DNA of 37,747 nt from Eledone cirrhosa (lineage: Eukaryota). Where the stretch lies: assembly GCA_964016885.1 (NCBI GenBank), contig CAXHJY010001726.1, positions 1 to 37,747 of the forward strand, in the 5' to 3' direction. Position 1 is the first letter of the stretch. Each line of letters begins with the position of its first letter. Below the pieces are notes generated by a model that worked only from the letters and a program-made list of their open reading frames with translations, was not told where the DNA came from and ran no database searches. Of the stretch, positions 23,905-37,747 are shown piece after piece. The translations under genes were made by a program, and so were the position numbers.

Positions 23905-24630
23905 TCAATGACATAAAGTACCAGTAATACTCTGGGTAATTACTGGCCTTGTGCTAAAAGTAGAAACAATTATTGTCGATGAACTTAAGGACCATGGAGT
24001 CGGTAGAGCGTCGGACAGCATTCTATGTGGTATTTAGTTATGTCATTTTAACGTTATGAGTTCGATTCCGTCTGAGATCAGCTTTGCCTTTCATCCTTAC
24101 AGGGTCGATAAAATGAAGTACCAGTAACGTACTAGGGTAGATTTAATCGACTTTCCCCTCTCCTCTAAATTGCTGGCCTTGTGCCTATATTATAAATCAT
24201 TATTATTGATAAACAAGGGCGTTGGATTGGCAGTAACCGTAGAAGGACGGACGCCATGAGTTGGCCGAGGTTAATTTTGCCTTTCATCTTTACGGAGTCG
24301 ATAAAATAAAGTACCAGTAATACACTGGGGTAATTTGCTGGCCTTGTGCCAAAAGTAGAAACAATTGTTGTTTCCGCCGAGGTTAACTTTGCCTTTCATC
24401 CTTACGGAGTCGATAAAATAAAGTACCAGTAATGCACTGGGGTAATTGCTGGCCTTGTGCCAAAAGTGGAAAAAATTGTTGTTGATGAACTTAAGGAGGG
24501 TGGATTGGCTGAGCCGGTAGAGCGTCGTACAGCATGATTTGTGGTATTTAGTTTAAGGGTATCCAACGTTCTGAGTTCGAATCCCTGCGAAGTCAGCTTT
24601 GCCATTGATCCCTACGGGGCCGATAAATTA
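23905..24630 (+). mobile_element. Cluster of about 5 head-to-tail full and partial copies of the Meta-domain-like SINE
   Basis: The TTTGCC(T/A)TT.ATC.(T/C)TAC.G.G.CGATAAA block occurs at about 24083, 24277, 24388 and 24598. The CTGGCCTTGTGC tail occurs at about 23943, 24173, 24338 and 24449. B boxes GAGTTCGATTCC (24058) and GAGTTCGAATCC (24573). Confidence 0.9.
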
Positions 24631-24661
24631 AGGAACTATCGAGAATTAAATTAAGAACAAT

Positions 24662-24700
24662 AGGGTCGTTGTGGCCTTGAGCAAGAAACTCTATTCAATG
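24662..24700 (+). mobile_element. Short CORE-like SINE remnant
   Basis: CGTTGTGGCCTTGAGCAAGAAACTCTATT resembles the minus-strand GTTGTTTCCTTGAGCAAGACACTTTATT of 941-1077. Confidence 0.5.
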
Positions 24701-24975: not shown

Positions 24976-25360
24976 TATATTCCCTTTTTCGGATTATATT
25001 ACTGTGAGAGCCCTGGTTTTCTGTTGAGCTCTGCTGATGAATGAAATTCCAACCGTGACCATCTCCACTGAAAGTTTTCATGAAATAGTCTTTTAAGACT
25101 ATACAGAGCATTTGATGTTATTCCAAATTGAAGGATAAGTGTTTCAAACTTTATTTTATCATGAGTTAAAGGTCTATAGATTTTTCCCTGGATTTTACTA
25201 AATTCTGTGGAGGAATTTATATCCTGATTCTCTTTTGAGATGAGTTTGAGTTATTTTTTCCTAAATCTTTCGTTAACTACTTTTCCCATCTTGACGTTAT
25301 AGTCGCATATATGTTATAGAATGCCGTTAGCTTCTTGCTAAAACAATCTCTATACCTCTC

Positions 25361-28092: not shown

Positions 28093-28608
28093 GTATATAG
28101 ATATATATAGAGAGAGGGAGTGAAATACATATATACATACAAATATATATATACAGATATATATACGTATATATATATGAATATATATATACATATATAT
28201 ATATATACACACATATATACACATTTATATATACACACACACACACGCACACACACACGCATATATATATATATATATATATACAATACATGAATATAGG
28301 TACACGTATATTTGTAGAGAAACAAAATGAATTCTGGTGATAGATAAGTCAATTCACAAATATACAAAGCTCGACGCAAGCTTACAAATATACTCATGTC
28401 TATATAGTATTGTATTTGGGGCTTTGCGCATGTGCAACTCTTTGACGTTGTGCATCTGTTATATATATATATATATATACATATATATGCACACACATAT
28501 ATATTTGTGTGTTTGTGAGTTCATGTATATATATATATATATATATAAATATATATGTAAGAATCTCTGAATGTATGTATTTCATATATTTATATATATA
28601 TATATATA

Positions 28609-28888
28609 TACGATATTAAATAAATGGAAACTATATTTATAAAACCATATTTATTTCATTATATATATTTCAGGGATATCATATTAACAATATGCTATGC
28701 CTTCCTCAGACAAAATACAATATAAACAGTTTTATAGATAAATAGATTTGACATACCGTACAATATGGTTTTATAAATATAGTTTCCATTTATTTAATAT
28801 CGTAAATATACTCCAAATACTTGTCGAGTGCTTTTATATCAGTTATAAATATTTACTAGTTGTAACCCAACAATTTAAATATAACTTT

Positions 28889-28890
<2 letters not shown>
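28609..28890. mobile_element. Hammerhead-bearing element, family B, copy 1 (inverted segment plus tailed segment)
   Basis: Perfect 43 bp inverted repeat at 28609-28651 / 28762-28804, then a tail at 28805-28890. Homologous to 34686-35120 and flanked by (TA)n. Confidence 0.78.
28652..28717 (-). ncRNA. Type I hammerhead ribozyme motif with palindromic mini stem III
   Basis: Minus strand: UAUUUUGU-CUGAGGA-AGGcAUAgCAUAUU-guu-AAUAUGaUAUcCCU-GAA-AUAUAUAU-A-AUGAAAUA. Stem I is 8 bp (two G.U pairs), stem II is long, and the triplet is AUA (cut between 28660 and 28659). Confidence 0.8.
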
Positions 28891-28942
<52 letters not shown>

Positions 28943-29091
28943 ATGTGTGTGTGTGTGTCAGCAATTATGGGGGCGAGCAAGATAGATCCTGGCGTGTGGG
29001 GCAACATAACTGAAGATGAGAATTTAATGATTATGGGATGAGATTGTGTGTGTATGTGTGTGCGTGTGTGTGTGTCTGTGTGTGTGTGTGC

Positions 29092-29335
29092 CAGAAATGG
29101 CGGTGGCGGAGTTTTCATACACTTTAATTAACACTCGTGTCACTCCCTCGTTAATTACCATTAATTATCTTCGTAAACAAAGAAACAATAGTTCTATGAA
29201 ACGATTATGAAAATGGCGAACGCTGACCGTACGCCGGCTTGTTGTTGCAAGCTGCAAGAACGCGGCGTTGTCTGTTATTAAAATACTCGAATAAACTCGG
29301 TCGTATGTGACCCACGAGTCGGCAAATTGTGGAGA
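29092..29335. promoter_or_regulatory. Candidate cis-regulatory island (CpG-containing, clustered TF-like motifs)
   Basis: TAATTA at 29125, 29152 and 29162; GTAAACA at 29173; AACAAT at 29184; AAAATGGCG at 29210. Motif matches only. Confidence 0.3.
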
Positions 29336-29635
29336 GTTGCCTGTGGGAATCGAACTAGCATCTACCCTAAACCACACGGTTGTCTTACCTTTCTGTCTAT
29401 ATTTCTTTCCTCCAGCAATACCTTTGTTTGTTTATGATTCTCTTATCCATCCTGTTGACTCCTGCGTATAATTTACACAGGTACAGATGCTGTGCCCCGG
29501 GGTTTTTTTTGGGGGGGGGGGGGGGGGGGGGGGTTAGGATAGATCGACTTTCGTGAGATAGGACCGAGGAAACAATGTTTCCGTTGGTCTTTCCAATTGA
29601 TAATACTATCTATCGGTTGCAACTCCAGATAGAAG

Positions 29636-29665
29636 GTGCAATGTGAAATAAAGTGTCTTGCTCAA
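29636..29665 (-). mobile_element. CORE-like SINE fragment abutting the 48 bp minisatellite
   Basis: GCAATGTGAAATAAAGTGTCTTGCTCAA matches 960-987 with one mismatch. Confidence 0.75.
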
Positions 29666-30752
29666 CCTGATCCAGACAAAAGCACTGGCTCAAGTGCTGG
29701 TCTCGGCGTTCATGTACCTGATCCATACAACACTGGCTCAAGTGCTGGTCTCCGCGTTCATGTACCTGATCCATACAACACTGGCTCAAGTGCTGGTCTC
29801 GGCGTTCATGTACCTGATCCATACAACACTGGCTCAAGTGCTGGTCTCGGCGTTCATGTACCTGATCCATACAACACTGGCTCAAGTGCTGGTCTCGGCG
29901 TTCATGTACCTGATCCATACAACACTGGCTCAAGTGCTGGTCTCGGCGTTCATGTACCTGATCCATACAACACTGGCTCAAGTGCTGGTCTCGGCGTTCA
30001 TGTACCTGATCCATACAACACTGGCTCAAGTGCTGGTCTCAGCCTTCATGTACCTGATCCATACAACACTGGCTCAAGTGCTGGTCTCAGCCTTCATGTA
30101 CCTGATCCATACAACACTGGCTCAATTGCTGGTCTCGGCGTTCATGTACCTGATCCATACAACACTGGCTCAAGTGCTGGTCTCGGCGTTCATGTACCTG
30201 ATCCATGCAACACTGGCTCAAGTGCTGGTCTCGGCGTTCATGTACCTGATCCATACAACACTGGCTCAAGTGCTGGTCTCCGCGTTCATGTACCTGATCC
30301 ATACAACACTGGCTCAAATGGTGATCTCGGCGTTCATGTACCTAATCCATACAACACTGGCTCAAGTGCTGGTCTCGGCGTTCATGTACCTGATCCATAC
30401 AACAGTGGCTCAAGTTCTTGTCTCGGCGTTCATGTACCTGATCCATACAACACTGGCTCAAGTGCTGGTCTCGGCGTTCATGTACCTGATCTATACACCA
30501 CTGGCTGAAGTGCTGGTCTCGGCGTTCATGTACCTGATCCATGCAACACTGGCTCAAGTGCTGGTCTCGGCGTTCATGTACCTGATCTATACACCACTGG
30601 CTCAATTGCTGGTCTCGGCGTTCATGTACCTGATCCATGCAACACTGGCTCAAGTGCTGGTCTCGGCGTTCATGTACCTGATCTATACACCACTGGCTGA
30701 AGTGCTGGTCTCGGCGTTCATATACCTGATCCATACAACAGTGGCTCAAGTG
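29666..30752. repeat. 48 bp minisatellite, about 22 copies (CCTGATCCATACAACACTGGCTCAAGTGCTGGTCTCGGCGTTCATGTA)
   Basis: Exact 48 bp period with few substitutions and no spacers. Gives 16-aa repeating ORFs in several frames. Confidence 0.97.
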
Positions 30753-30789
30753 ACTGTGTCTATGACCAGTGTATATAGATCACAGACAC

Positions 30790-32145
<1,356 letters not shown>

Positions 32146-32177
32146 ATTAATTTTTATGGTTGAATCACCAGGATCTA

Positions 32178-32574
32178 CATCATCATCATCATCATCATCA
32201 TCATCGCCCCCCCCCCCACCCACCACCACCACCATCATCACCACCATCATCATCTTTATTACCATTCTTATCGCCTTCATCATCATCATTATCATCTACA
32301 ACATCCACATACCTCATCCTTGTCATTATTACAACCACCGCCATCATCGTCATCATCATCATCATCATCACCACCACCATCGCCGCCATCATCATCATCA
32401 TCGCCATCGCCATCTTCGTCATCGTCATTGTCGTCATCATCGACTATAATATCCGACCACTCCTCCAGTCTAACTTGTCACCACTTCCGCTACTTCCACC
32501 ACATCCGGTACTTCCGTCTTACTAATATTCGCGTTGCCGCCGCCGCCGCCGCCACCGAATTTACCTTCACGATC

Positions 32575-32605
<31 letters not shown>

Positions 32606-33210
32606 ACAACAAAACCACTACTATCACCATCATCAACAAGACCACCATCAACAACACTATCGCCGCAACCAACACCACCACCACCACCGACAGCAGTATC
32701 ACCACGCCATTAACCCAACCAACAACACCACCAACACTCTCGCCGCAACCTACACCACCACCACCAACTCCACCACCACGACAACTACCACCATAACACC
32801 ACCTCTTACCACCACCAACACCACCTACACCACCACCACCGACAGCAGTATCACCACACCATTAACACAACCAACAACACAACAACACTCTCGCCGCAAC
32901 AACACCACCACCACAACTCCACCTACCACCACAACTACCACCTATTAACACCACCACTACCACCACCACCACCACCACCACTCACCACCGACAGCAGTAT
33001 CACCACAGCATTAACACACCACCACCACACCACCGCTTCACTAAAATCACTACCACTAACATGACCACCAACATTACACAACCAACGCCAATAACCACAT
33101 CTAACACACCTACCACCTCCATCAACACTACCACCATCAATACACCACACAACAACACTATCACCACTATCACCACACCTAACAGCACTACCACAACACC
33201 ACCACCAGCC
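32178..33210. repeat. (CAT/CAC/AAC)n triplet tract with an internal about 150 bp repeat
   Basis: ACCACCGACAGCAGTATCACCAC occurs at about 32683, 32834 and 32984. Confidence 0.88.
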
Positions 33211-34302
33211 ATGCTGTAATGTCCAAAAACCTTGTGTCTCACAAAGTAGTTACATATTCCTCTAGAAATAGCACCAAATCCCTTCAAAGTATATATATAT
33301 ATATATATACATATAATTGCTGTTTATGTATATACATGTATAATATATGTATATATAATATTTATCAATAAGTAAATTATTTATAAATTTATTGAATGAT
33401 AAATCATGAATCGCAAATTGAAAATATTTGACGCCATTTGAATTGCATAAATTGTATATATATATACATAATACCACACACACAGACACACACACACACA
33501 TACATACATACATACACAGACACACATACATACATACATACAAGACACACTTAATATACACACACATTACACTACTTAATACACACACACACACACTAAT
33601 TACCATCATACATACATCATACATACAACACTAATAGACACACTAACACACACACACTTACCCCACGTCTGTGTCCCGCGAGCTTATGTCTCACCTTATT
33701 GCCGAATATGAGACAACGGACGGAGGAAGAAGGATTTGGAAATTGCAGGAAGGGTAGAACGGATGGAAAAAAATGAAAATTGAACTTAGAATGCTTTCCC
33801 ATTTTAAACGTCTTCGCTTTCCTTGTCTTTATTATCACCATCATTATTTTCACCTCTTAATTACAAACTAATTTCATCTTCCTGCGACCAACACCTCTTA
33901 ATTACCAAGCCCTATTCCAACTCCTAATACCCACCTGTACACTCACAGATCTCTATCCTTCACACATATTACACCCACTCAATTTCATTCGCTCCACCCC
34001 TCCTCAGCCATCTATATTTCACCAATATCATCCCATCAACTTCACCTACTTAAATGTACTGACACTAATATCTTTGTACTAGTTAATATTCACATTAATA
34101 TATACACACTATGCACACTTAAATAAGCACACATACATACATATATGCACACATATATATATACATATATACACATAATTACATACACATACATATCTCG
34201 ATCAAAAGAACTCTTAATACACACACATTTCTCTACCCACAACAACAAAAAAAAGCTGAATTTGGTGGCTGAATTGCTGCAGCCTTCTTTAATATATATA
34301 TG

Positions 34303-34544
34303 ACACAGAGGAGACAGGGGTTAGCTGGACATGGTCACCGACATCCAGAGTTGACATTGCACTCAGTGCTCCTGTGGGAGCCCCTACATGGACACACTAG
34401 AAGAGGAAGACCAAGGTTACGTATGTTGATGCCCTAAGGACAGACACTGGTCTGCTGGACACGCAGGACATGGCAGCGATAATGAGGGACAGAGACCGCT
34501 GGAGAGAACTCGTCCATGGATCTCGGGAATTTTACCCGCCCTAG
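34303..34544 (+). mobile_element. 5'-truncated 3' end of an RTE-clade (RTE/RTE-X-like) LINE ORF2, with one frameshift
   Basis: Translates TQRRQGLAGHGHRHPELTLHSVLLWEPLHGHTRRGRPR /frameshift near 34417/ TYVDALRTDTGLLDTQDMAAIMRDRDRWRELVHGSREFYPP*. This matches the RR-x-x-(L/F)AGH...W.P..G...RGRP...Y.D......G......M.DR..WR C-terminal signature of RTE-type ORF2. The TAG at 34542-34544 is followed by an AT-repeat tail. Confidence 0.85.
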
Positions 34545-34726
34545 ATATATACTATATATATATATACTTTATTAAATACCAGACTAAGGTTAGCGAGACT
34601 CTGCTTTCATCCTAACGGATGATATGAACTAATAAAGTCAATCTGTCAATTTATTACTATATATATATATTATATATATATATATTACGATATTAAACAA
34701 ATGGAAACTATATTTATAAACCATAC

Positions 34727-34788
34727 TATTCATTATACATATTTCAGGGATACCATATTAAAGATATGCATCCTTCTTCAGATAAATA
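34727..34788 (-). ncRNA. Type I hammerhead ribozyme motif (left arm of the palindrome)
   Basis: Minus strand: UAUUUAU-CUGAAGA-AGGaugcauauc-uuu-aauaugguaucCCU-GAA-AUaug uAU-A-AUGAAUA. The core is intact, stem I is 7 bp, and stem II has small indels. Confidence 0.72.
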
Positions 34789-34927
34789 CAATTATATAAG
34801 CATTTTTATAAATAAATTTGACGTACCATAAATATTGATCATAAATATTGATCAACTTCCACTTCGCACATGGAAGTTGATCAATATTTATGGTACGTCA
34901 ATTTATTATACAACTGCTTATATATTG

Positions 34928-34993
34928 TATTTTATCTGAAGAAGGCATGCCATATTTTTAATATGGTATCCCTGAAATATGTATAATGAAATA
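34928..34993 (+). ncRNA. Type I hammerhead ribozyme motif (right arm of the palindrome)
   Basis: UAUUUUAU (34928-35), CUGAAGA (34936-42), AGGcAUGCCAUAUU-uuu-AAUAUGGUAUcCCU (34943-73), GAAA (34974-77), U-augu-AU, A (34985), AUGAAAUA (34986-93). Stem I is 8 bp, stem II is 13 bp, and the triplet is AUA. Confidence 0.83.
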
Positions 34994-35257
34994 GATATGG
35001 TTTTATAAATATAGTTTCCATTTGTTAATATCGTATATCTACTCCAAAACTTTTGAGTGCTTTATATCAGTTATAAAATATTTACTTGTTGTACCCAACA
35101 ATTTTAAATAAAACTTTTGCATATATAATGTTACTATTGTTATACTTGGTGGGTCATATTGTTGTAATAATTTGTAATAATATTACAGAAATAATAACAG
35201 ATATATATATACTATTATAATGAATTAATGCCGTACACTAGATATGAGCTTTATATA

Positions 35258-35603
35258 TATGGTTCAACCCAGAGAGCAGAGAGCCTAAACAAGGCATTCT
35301 AGCTGAGGTTTCACCATCTTCCCGTTCAACGGTGGCAAACCCCTCGTCTGGATGCCACTTGCAGCGACACTTCCTCCAGCCGCAACCTAGTGCAGTCTGC
35401 AACTAACCAGGTTCTGCTGCACGTCGAGCTGAGGAGGCCAACTCTCCAAACACCGCTCGCTCCCCGACAGGCGTGCGGTCGTGCCCTTGGCAGTGGAGAA
35501 TTCTGGTGTCCTGGCCCTAGGGTTACCTCGCTCCCTACCCACCACCATAGGCCGCTGAAGATAGCCAGCTGCTGTGAGCCTCGCGGTTTGAATGTCTCGT
35601 CAG
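35258..35603. other. GC-rich unique island contiguous with the about 97 bp array; probable transposon-derived (UTR-like) sequence
   Basis: Sharp GC increase with AT-rich flanks and no recognisable protein motif. It runs seamlessly into the first repeat unit. Confidence 0.35.
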
Positions 35604-36382
35604 CGCATCTCCCCTTACCATCCTCGGGGAAACGCCTTTATCCGTCCTGTCCGCCGGGCTGTAGGGGAGGCCAGCCCGTGGGGACCCCATTTGCTCTACC
35701 ATACTAATTATCTCCTTAACATCCTCGAGGAAACGCCTTATCCATCCTCTCCGCCGGGGCTGTGGGGGAGGCCAGCCCGTGGGACCCCATTTGCTCACCA
35801 TACGCATTATCTCCCTTACATCTCCGGAACGCTTCTCCAACCTGTCCGCCGGGGCTGTAGGGGAGGCCAGCACGTGGACCCCATTTGCTCACCATACGCA
35901 TTATCTCCCTTACCATCCTCCGGGAAACGCCTTCTCCAACTGTCCACCGGCTGTAGGGAGGCCAGCCCGTGGACCCATTTGATACCACACTAATTATCTC
36001 CTCTTACCATCCTCCGGGAAACGCCTTCTCCATCCTCCGGGCGTGGGAGGCCAGCACGTGGGACCCATTTGCTATACCACACTAATTACACCTCTTACCA
36101 TCCTCCGAGGAAACGCCTCTCTATCCTGTCCGCCGGGCTGTAGGGGAGGCCAGCCCGTGGGACCCCATTTGCTACCACACTAATTATCTCCCTTACATCC
36201 TCCGGGAAACGCCTTCTCTATCCTGTCCGCCGGGCTGTAGGGGAGGCCAACCGTGGGACCCCATTTGCTAACCACACTAATTACACCTCTTACCATCCTC
36301 CGGGAATACGCCTTCTCCAACTGTCCGCCGGGGCTGTAGGGGAGGCCAGCCCGTGGGACCCCATTTGCTCACCATACGCATT
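35604..36382. repeat. GC-rich tandem repeat, about 95-100 bp unit, 8 copies
   Basis: The GGACCC(C)ATTTG anchor occurs at about 35682, 35782, 35876, 35971, 36061, 36160, 36257 and 36356. Each unit contains GGGCTGTAGGGGAGGCCAGCCC and CCATCCTCCGGGAAACGCCTT. Confidence 0.93.
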
Positions 36383-36676
36383 AATAGCAATACAATTTAC
36401 AATATAACTATTATAAATAAACCTACTTTCATTAATATTTATGTTAATGGCCGCCTTGAAATAAACAGAATGGAATAATTAAAATATATATGAATAATAC
36501 ACAGAATTGTGGCCAGCGCTACTACTAATACCACCACCACTACAACAACCACTTTACCACCACCATAACCACTACCTTTACCACATACGCCGCCCCTACA
36601 TACACATCTAGGACTGTCCGGTAAATGTGAGGACAATCACCATAATCATAATCGTAAAAATAGTGTTTATAATGAT

Positions 36677-36679
<3 letters not shown>

Positions 36680-36709
<30 letters not shown>

Positions 36710-36873
36710 CTAATATACTATATATATACGCATGGTGTGTATACTATATATATGTAATATATACATATATATTAGTGGCGTGGTGGAGTGGTTTTCAGTG
36801 GACGAGTATCGTGGGTATTAACTCCCTCCTTCCTTTCGAACCGATCATTTTTGTTATAAAATAAATATTCCTA

Positions 36874-36908
<35 letters not shown>

Positions 36909-36972
36909 AATGTATATATTTATATACATTTATATATATATATATATATATATATGTATTTATATATATGTA

Positions 36973-37009
<37 letters not shown>

Positions 37010-37133
37010 CATGTATATATGTATATATGTGTGTGTATGTGTTTATATCTTTATATATATATGTATAACGTGTTTTGTATATATCTGTTTATAGACATAT
37101 CTATATATATATATATGTATATATATATATACA

Positions 37134-37196
<63 letters not shown>

Positions 37197-37302
37197 CATA
37201 TATATGTTGATATTTATTTATATATATGTATATATATATATGGTTATATTGATATATATTTACATATATTTATATATATATATATGTTTATATATATATA
37301 TG

Positions 37303-37354
<52 letters not shown>

Positions 37355-37355
37355 G
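36680..37355. repeat. (TA)n-rich microsatellite field
   Basis: Seen directly. Confidence 0.9.
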
Positions 37356-37747
37356 CGAGGACATCTATTTTTTTTCCGTTTTCCGCCTTCCTCCGTCTCT
37401 CCTCGCCTTCCCCCGTATCTCCCTGCCGACCTGTTATTAATTTTATCAAATATATATTTATTGTACGACACCTCCCCGCCTCTTAACTCTCGTACTTTCA
37501 TCATCATATCCCTATAATTGTCTTGTCTTAGTTATTATTATCCATAAGTCCTGTAATTCCAAAAATATGAACTCCCCTCCGAACCGAACGAACACAAAGC
37601 GCTCCACAGGGGGACATACAAAAACAATCTCCACAAACCCAGAACCCACACTCTGTGTATGTGTGTGTATATATATATTTATATATATATATATATATAT
37701 AATATATATATATATATAAATATGCATATATATATTTAAAAGCCATT

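What the first reader, a model, noticed from the sequence alone, without database searches (positions are those of the whole stretch)
34686..35120. 350 bp palindrome carrying two divergent hammerhead ribozymes, one per strand
Seen: arms 34686-34861 and 34871-35035 are reverse complements. Each holds a complete type I hammerhead core (CUGAAGA, long stem II, GAAA, 2 bp near-palindromic stem III, AUA, 7-8 bp stem I), at 34727-34788 (-) and 34928-34993 (+). An about 85 bp tail extends only the right arm. Established: minimal type I hammerheads with a tiny palindromic stem III occur in the pseudo-LTRs of Penelope-like retroelements and can cleave as dimers, and these elements often insert with an inverted partial pseudo-LTR. 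Inference: this is a non-autonomous Penelope-like or retrozyme-like insertion. Transcription from either strand would give an RNA with one ribozyme plus its antisense, so long dsRNA hairpin formation would compete with self-cleavage.
Basis: partly seen in the sequence, partly recalled or inferred. Interest (0 to 1): 0.85.

Follow-up and report, generated by a model that had tools for sequence, protein, structure and literature searches.

The report
Head-to-head Penelope retroelement ends with ribozymes
This palindrome is two back-to-back end pieces of a jumping gene that has thousands of copies in this genome, each piece carrying a predicted self-cutting RNA, and its copies almost always pair one short end with one long end, likely because both cut DNA strands start a copy.

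Summary
The arms are reverse complements and each carries a type I hammerhead motif. It is neither an artefact nor a stand-alone retrozyme. It is a 5'-truncated, head-to-head insertion of an autonomous Penelope-like element (PLE) with at least 2,256 copies. The parent encodes a 742-aa telomerase-like RT with C-terminal GIY-YIG motifs and the published marks of the Hydra clade. The ribozyme core is intact in 116 of 126 arms, and position N7 takes all four bases. Opposite-strand hammerhead pairs, inverted pLTRs and one-sided tails are already published. The family adds a quantified rule. Arms end at two fixed sites 88 nt apart (A, B). Of 66 resolved insertions, 65 pair A with B. The A arm is the longer in 31 of 65, which fold-back of one cDNA cannot give. 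Both arms share subfamily type in 37 of 38. Best mechanism (inferred, about 0.6): both 3' ends of a cut (TA)n target prime reverse transcription on uncleaved RNA, one at each site. Cleavage and transcription were not tested.

The parts
34686..34841 (-). Left arm: inverted, 5'-truncated pseudo-LTR copy, from end A (+51 from the predicted cut) to -109
   Evidence: 92.6% to the full copy in L031; mirror of the right arm
34727..34788 (-). Minimal type I hammerhead motif of the left arm; core at 34781, predicted cut 3' of 34734
   Evidence: Descriptor; its single-base deletions are absent from the C336 duplicate
34829..34861 (.). Junction: 13-nt tandem duplication, a few more antisense bases, then the switch to sense
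   Evidence: Sequence; same junction in C336
34861..35120 (+). Right arm: 5'-truncated pseudo-LTR from -126 to end B (+138 in the full copy)
   Evidence: 97% to L031; 1,804 exact B-end plus TA matches in the genome
34928..34993 (+). Minimal type I hammerhead motif; core at 34936, AUA triplet, predicted cut after 34985
   Evidence: Descriptor, conservation, pair counts; activity not tested
35035..35120 (+). One-sided tail between end A and end B (86 nt here, 88 nt in L031); in tandem copies it is 5' UTR, and the ATG follows 50 nt after B
34658..34685 (.). (TA)n target remnant at end A; a short ATATAT follows end B at 35121
   Evidence: Sequence; the B end is followed by a TA-type repeat in 60 of 65 insertions
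28603..28888 (.). Second, older insertion of the same family: inverted A arm (+57 to -103) with a hammerhead motif (core at 28709, - strand), and a B arm from +9 that lacks the core

Best explanation
The palindrome is a truncated head-to-head insertion of a Penelope-like retroelement that carries the published marks of the Hydra clade, likely made when both 3' ends of a cut (TA)n target each primed reverse transcription. Shown: the sequence is the 3' pseudo-LTR of an about 4.1-kb element with an RT ORF; arms end at site A or site B; nearly every resolved insertion has one of each, pointing apart. Inferred steps: (1) the endonuclease cuts both strands of (TA)n; (2) each end pairs with the ATAT that follows A or B in the RNA; (3) one RT copies from A and the other from B, on the same or a sibling uncleaved RNA, the B copy either stopping near A or displacing the A copy; (4) the two cDNA 3' ends are joined with little or no microhomology. 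The hammerheads are passengers here. In the parent they would cleave only as dimers or with protein help. A read-through RNA of this locus is predicted to form a long hairpin instead of a ribozyme.
For: Parent: L031 holds tail fragment, ORF, 1.6-kb 3' UTR, hammerhead, A and B. In 11 of 30 ORF-anchored loci a hammerhead lies just upstream of the ORF, and the cut-to-ATG distance is 186-189 nt in the 8 where the ATG motif matched. The 742-aa natural ORF models at pLDDT 82.5; its top three Foldseek hits are telomerases (E 1.6e-9 to 8.8e-9) and the top VIA-align hit is a telomerase (Z 16.2, rmsd 9.1, 326 aligned). Pairing: of 90 A-end insertions, 64 end in B, 1 in a doubtful A, 18 are unresolved and 7 run off; L078, read by eye, makes 65. 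Of 30 B-anchored loci, 15 pair with A, 0 with B and 15 are unresolved. Of 65 units: A arm longer 31, symmetric 17, B arm longer 16, unclear 1. In 7 of 63, plus L078, the B arm starts at +35 or later, next to A. A 7-site subfamily type is the same in both arms in 37 of 38 (shuffle mean 9.3, max 19). 59 of 63 A arms and 52 of 63 B arms cross the cut site, and 1 of 94 reliable arm ends lies within -5..+8 of it. PMC11167929 (main-text parts 1-2 read): a PLE protein cuts and extends both strands, starts RT at two sites that bound the tail, and does not need ribozyme cleavage.
Against: 17 of 65 units are near-perfect hairpins, which fold-back explains as simply. One B-B unit exists. 25 of 90 A-anchored loci were unresolved or ran off, and some (L243, L248, L225) show a lone A arm running into TA repeat. 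[quoted passage not shown] Arm concordance could also come from one subfamily being active at a time or from gene conversion; only 5 of 21 private letters are shared by both arms. The ORF has no Pfam or PDB sequence hit for RT or GIY-YIG; only a relative scores weakly (GIY-YIG E 0.0023, RVT_1 E 0.019). Fold similarity to TERT is modest (TM 0.33-0.37) and other RTs follow within Z 1-2.
Confidence: 0.62

Rival explanations
1. Same element, but the inverted arm is made by self-priming: one strand (a B-primed cDNA, or an antisense RNA as proposed in PMC3846280) folds back and is copied, and the endonuclease then trims one end at A.
For: 17 of 65 units have a loop of 25 nt or less, and arms are concordant in 37 of 38. 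Mean mismatches are 1.17 within units and 6.87 between units over 131 nt (36 units). PMC3846280 (passages read) infers self-priming from junction palindromes; PMC8557442 (passages read) ascribes the tail to endonuclease resolution.
Against: Fold-back of a B-primed cDNA can only give A arms contained in the B arm, yet A is longer in 31 of 65, by up to 3 kb. An antisense template can only give the reverse, yet B is longer in 16 of 65. Both routes would have to operate.
Confidence: 0.25
2. The 450-bp palindrome is itself a non-autonomous mobile unit (retrozyme- or MITE-like) that is copied whole.
For: 40 of 63 units are 600 nt or shorter, median 471. 10 of 15 listed symmetric centres fall at -126 to -142. 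L109 and L121 share one junction.
Against: Junctions and arm lengths otherwise differ between insertions, from 138 nt to 4.6 kb, grading into near full-length elements. No tandem array. The window's junction was seen again only on the duplicate contig.
Confidence: 0.07
3. The locus has been kept by the host as a source of double-stranded or small RNA that silences the family.
For: A read-through RNA is predicted to form a hairpin of about 160 bp. PMC3846280 (passages) reports antisense small RNAs against PLEs in a rotifer.
Against: Nothing singles out this copy: it is one of thousands, 97% identical to the others, among repeats.
Confidence: 0.05
4. Fold-back read or assembly artefact.
For: The contig is small (37.7 kb) and indel-rich. 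No read or contig in the four runs laid spans the whole stretch.
Against: The asymmetric A/B layout recurs at dozens of chromosome loci. The same junction is on C336. Illumina reads show the A end (5,695 and 6,511 reads) and strand-switch joints.
Confidence: 0.01

Closest known systems
Hydra-clade PLEs (PMC8557442; passages and supplement part 2 read), e.g. Penelope-13_HM and Hydra-1_Obim
   Same: DKT motif, CxCx5C linker, no CCHH, CxxC and CxH near the endonuclease end, type I hammerhead near the 3' end, (TA)n target. Penelope-13_HM is listed with a 5'-truncated inverted copy and a hammerhead on each strand.
   Different: RWR instead of RWK. About 4.1 kb with a 1.6-kb 3' UTR, where the listed families are 1.1-3.0 kb. 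Tail of 88 nt against the 30-40 bp described for PLEs. The hammerhead differs by eye from the one listed for Hydra-1_oBim (longer stem II, 2-bp stem III).
Minimal PLE hammerheads (PMC4209133; parts 1-2 of 4 read)
   Same: Type I, long stem II, tiny palindromic stem III, located in pLTRs. That paper reports dual motifs about 100-700 bp apart on opposite strands in Schistosoma.
   Different: Stem I is longer (8 bp). Covariation favours a stem II that starts directly after the core, without the unpaired base and G10.1-C11.1 pair that the paper describes (that first pair is broken in 11 of 33 rows).
PAc Poseidon element of Anolis (PMC11167929; parts 1-2 of 4 read)
   Same: Two fixed ends bounding a one-sided tail downstream of the hammerhead; AT-rich target; uncleaved RNA as template.
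   Different: In PAc the ribozyme and RT starts overlap the ORF; here both ends lie in the 5' UTR, 138 and 50 nt before the ATG. The passages I read do not link the two starts to inverted arms.
Animal non-LTR retrozymes (bioRxiv 10.64898/2026.07.22.740005; part 1 of 5 read)
   Same: Non-coding, type I hammerhead, derived from PLE pLTRs.
   Different: Defined by head-to-tail tandem units; this family is head-to-head with variable junctions.
LINE-1 twin priming (recalled, not read)
   Same: Both target ends prime cDNA and leave an inverted 5' part.
   Different: In L1 the second primer lands at variable internal sites; here both sites are fixed and the arms usually overlap.

Membership tests
Penelope-like element, EN+ | Single ORF with a telomerase-like RT | tested here: met
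   742-aa natural ORF with YRDD; top fold hits are TERTs; no Pfam or PDB sequence hit
Penelope-like element, EN+ | C-terminal GIY-YIG endonuclease | tested here: inconclusive
   IIY..YVG with conserved R, E and N by eye in the alignment; one relative hits Pfam GIY-YIG at E 0.0023; the fold searches covered only residues 6-482
Penelope-like element, EN+ | Pseudo-LTRs from partial tandems, inverted 5' copy, one-sided tail | tested here: met
Penelope-like element, EN+ | Type I hammerhead in the pLTR | tested here: met
   Descriptor, conservation and covariation; no Rfam hit
Hydra clade | DKT in place of DKG | tested here: met
   KSDKT
Hydra clade | RWK motif | tested here: inconclusive
   RWR in this family; RWK at the same column in most aligned relatives
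Hydra clade | CxCx5C linker, no CCHH, CxxC and CxH near the endonuclease end | tested here: met
Hydra clade | (TA)n insertion preference | tested here: met
   B end followed by TA-type repeat in 60 of 65; the A set was selected for it
Hydra clade | Groups with Hydra RTs in a tree | not tested
Hammerhead ribozyme | Self-cleavage | not testable with these tools
   Bench test needed
Non-LTR retrozyme | Head-to-tail tandem units that each hold a hammerhead | tested here: not met
   Head-to-head single units; contrast the 25034 family with 600-630 bp spacing

The most novel reading that the evidence does not exclude
PLE integration is a coordinated two-primer reaction. One RNP assigns the two 3' ends of a double-strand cut to two different fixed start sites on one uncleaved RNA, which explains inverted pLTRs, the one-sided tail and A/B exclusivity at once. 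The many short symmetric palindromes would be copies of the mRNA 5' end, with centres at about -126 to -142 marking the transcription start. This genome would hold thousands of natural reaction products to map it.
Probability: 0.45. Interest if true: 0.6.

Novelty: new member of a known kind. Interest (0 to 1): 0.36.

Why it matters
The locus itself is ordinary: one of thousands of dead insertions, in an arrangement already described. Its value is the family. PMC8557442 names the formation of tandem and inverted PLE structures as unresolved. A young, abundant family with two fixed ends 88 nt apart turns that into countable predictions (A-B exclusivity, which arm is longer, where arms stop). 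It also gives genomic evidence that the copied RNA was mostly uncleaved although the ribozyme core is conserved. For annotation, such palindromes can be mistaken for MITEs, miRNA hairpins or read artefacts.

Tried and rejected
Rfam at E <= 1: no hammerhead family, only AT-repeat miRNA noise; I did not test whether Rfam detects known PLE hammerheads. Pfam and PDB sequence searches of the ORF: nothing meaningful. No RNA holder was listed, so expression is untested; this is evidence neither way. The runs laid are of an unnamed organism sharing at most 0.40 of the words, and none spans this junction. My first arm classification (29 symmetric, 18 A longer, 10 B longer, 6 unclear of 63) let gapped alignments run through the centre; it was replaced. 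One search failed on an index error. The constrained energies used a mis-sized structure and were redone. The search favours copies covering the whole query, so it was not used for counts. An excess of arm ends at the cut site, which would show cleaved templates, was not found. Symmetric stops at -98 to -103 are partly subfamily divergence from the reference. In one search the number of pairs with a double change (3) is not above shuffles (126 of 500). No earlier scan findings. Searches for a paper stating the two-primer model: 'Penelope' + 'twin priming', six-term search from 2022, 'Penelope-like' + 'cryo-EM' from 2024; I saw listings only, none evidently on this model. Older subscription reviews on Penelope are not in the library, and supplementary figures could not be seen, so it may be in print.

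Full report
1. Observation. The palindrome is real: 154 matches, 4 mismatches and 11 one-base gaps between 34679-34841 and 34878-35041, folding z -26. Rfam reports no hammerhead, and the isolated motifs are not unusually stable. A second contig, C336, carries the same insertion and junction with cleaner arms, so most left-arm deletions are probably sequence errors.

2. It is a repeat family. The genome is 3.0 Gb, and the right arm has 1,134 candidate matches, the 40 scored at 96-97%. Copies stop at two fixed points: A, 50 nt after the predicted cut, and B, 138 nt after it. Exact counts: A followed by TA repeat 2,256, B followed by TA repeat 1,804, A read through 1,201; reversed-pattern controls 0. 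In the element itself both A and B are followed by ATAT, which matches the target repeat. Raw Illumina DNA reads of an unnamed organism show the A end and strand-switch joints, but none spans this junction.

3. The parent. Long copies lead to L031: tail fragment, ORF (broken in that copy), 1.6-kb 3' UTR, hammerhead, A, B. More than 30 of the 150 best protein matches, mostly a sister subfamily at 91-93%, have open frames of 733 aa or more. In tandem copies the order is hammerhead, A, B, ATG, with 186-189 nt from cut to ATG. The protein has YRDD, DKT, RWR, CxCx5C, no CCHH, CxxC and CxH, the marks given for the Hydra clade in PMC8557442. Named relatives come from Argonauta, Octopus and a coral. 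The model's best fold matches are telomerases. The endonuclease is assigned by motif only, and no tree was made.

4. The ribozyme. Of 126 arms that span it, 116 have an intact core. N7 is A 77, C 28, G 14, T 7, while its neighbours are 98-100% fixed. Stem III reads TATGTA or the fully palindromic TATATA. These arms descend from few masters, so they are not independent. On 33 hand-picked rows (3 from the window, 30 of 57 distinct haplotypes), 94.5% of cells pair, and three pairs change on both sides; 13 such cells exceed all 500 shuffles, while the number of pairs does not. A 2-bp self-complementary stem III is the dimer-dependent type of PMC4209133, which found low activity in vitro and already reported dual motifs on opposite strands. 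One transcript of this locus holds only one sense ribozyme, and the hairpin outcompetes it by 70.9 kcal/mol. Cleavage was not tested.

5. How the palindrome arises. I examined 90 of the first 100 listed A-end hits; 9 rows already near other fetched loci and the last row were left out. Results: 64 end in an inverted B arm, 1 in a doubtful A arm (70% identical), 18 unresolved, 7 run off. L078, read by eye, adds one. Of 30 B-anchored loci, 15 pair with A, none with B, 15 unresolved; one B-B unit was seen in another sample. Of 65 A-B units, A is longer in 31, B in 16, 17 are symmetric and 1 is unclear. In 8 the B arm starts at +35 or later, next to A. Both arms share a 7-site type in 37 of 38, against 9.3 on shuffling. 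Most arms cross the cut site, and 1 of 94 ends lies at it, so templates were mostly uncleaved.

6. Reading. Each arm begins as antisense DNA at a target junction, as a target-primed cDNA would. A single cDNA folding back cannot make both length classes. Two primers on one kind of RNA can. PMC11167929 showed both-strand cutting and extension and two start sites bounding the tail, but reported no strand difference in start site; my searches of its text and three supplement files found no link to inverted arms. PMC3846280 proposes self-priming instead, which fits the symmetric units. I put identity at about 0.95 and the two-primer mechanism at about 0.6. Symmetric centres cluster at -126 to -142 in 10 of 15 listed, and this copy's right arm starts at -126. 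A transcription start there is a guess.

7. Known versus new. Inverted pLTRs, one-sided tails, (TA)n targeting and two-strand hammerheads are published, including a Hydra-clade example. This is a new family member with a long 3' UTR and a long tail. The counted A-B rule is the part I did not find in print, within the searches listed. Papers seen: PMC8557442 passages and supplement part 2; PMC4209133 parts 1-2; PMC11167929 parts 1-2 and supplement search; PMC3846280 passages; bioRxiv 2026.07.22.740005 part 1. L1 twin priming is recalled.

Noticed in passing
window 25028-25109 (+): A different type I hammerhead motif with a 7-bp stem III (core at 25034, predicted cut after 25103). It belongs to another very young family: 1,387 candidates, the 40 scored at 99-100% over 141 nt, often spaced 599-634 bp apart in tandem. 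It looks like a non-LTR retrozyme.
   Followed up: partly
window 28212-37747 and G000:C336:1-8638: The end of this contig is duplicated on C336 at 83-97% with many indels, probably a haplotype copy or a poorly polished duplicate.
   Followed up: partly
window 34290-34530 (+): 3' end of a LINE-like reading frame ending DRDRWRELV; 93-96% matches at several other loci, one next to a LINE-like ORF in L039. The LINE label is from recall.
   Followed up: partly
window 34566-34655 and 35126-35195: Both flanks of the palindrome match other dispersed repeats, which occur in opposite orientations within single loci (L194, L058). They may be ends of other inverted-arm families nested in the same TA tracts.
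   Followed up: no
window 35610-36390: GC-rich tandem repeat of about 97 bp, 8 copies; no match in the other fetched loci apart from the C336 duplicate and few others.
   Followed up: no
window 29660-30760: 48-bp minisatellite, about 22 near-identical copies, that leaves long open frames.
   Followed up: no
window 24300-24700: Degenerate repeats that resemble a SINE with a conserved central core; label from recall, not tested.
   Followed up: no
L032 4304-5251 (-), L035 1-1208, L037 8511-9899: Other Penelope-like RT fragments lie near family copies, so several PLE families share these TA-rich regions.
   Followed up: no
L117 (G000:C1:56024516-56025801), L080, L043: Back-to-back insertions of palindromic units into the TA tract left by an earlier one, including two identical adjacent units in L117.
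   Followed up: no
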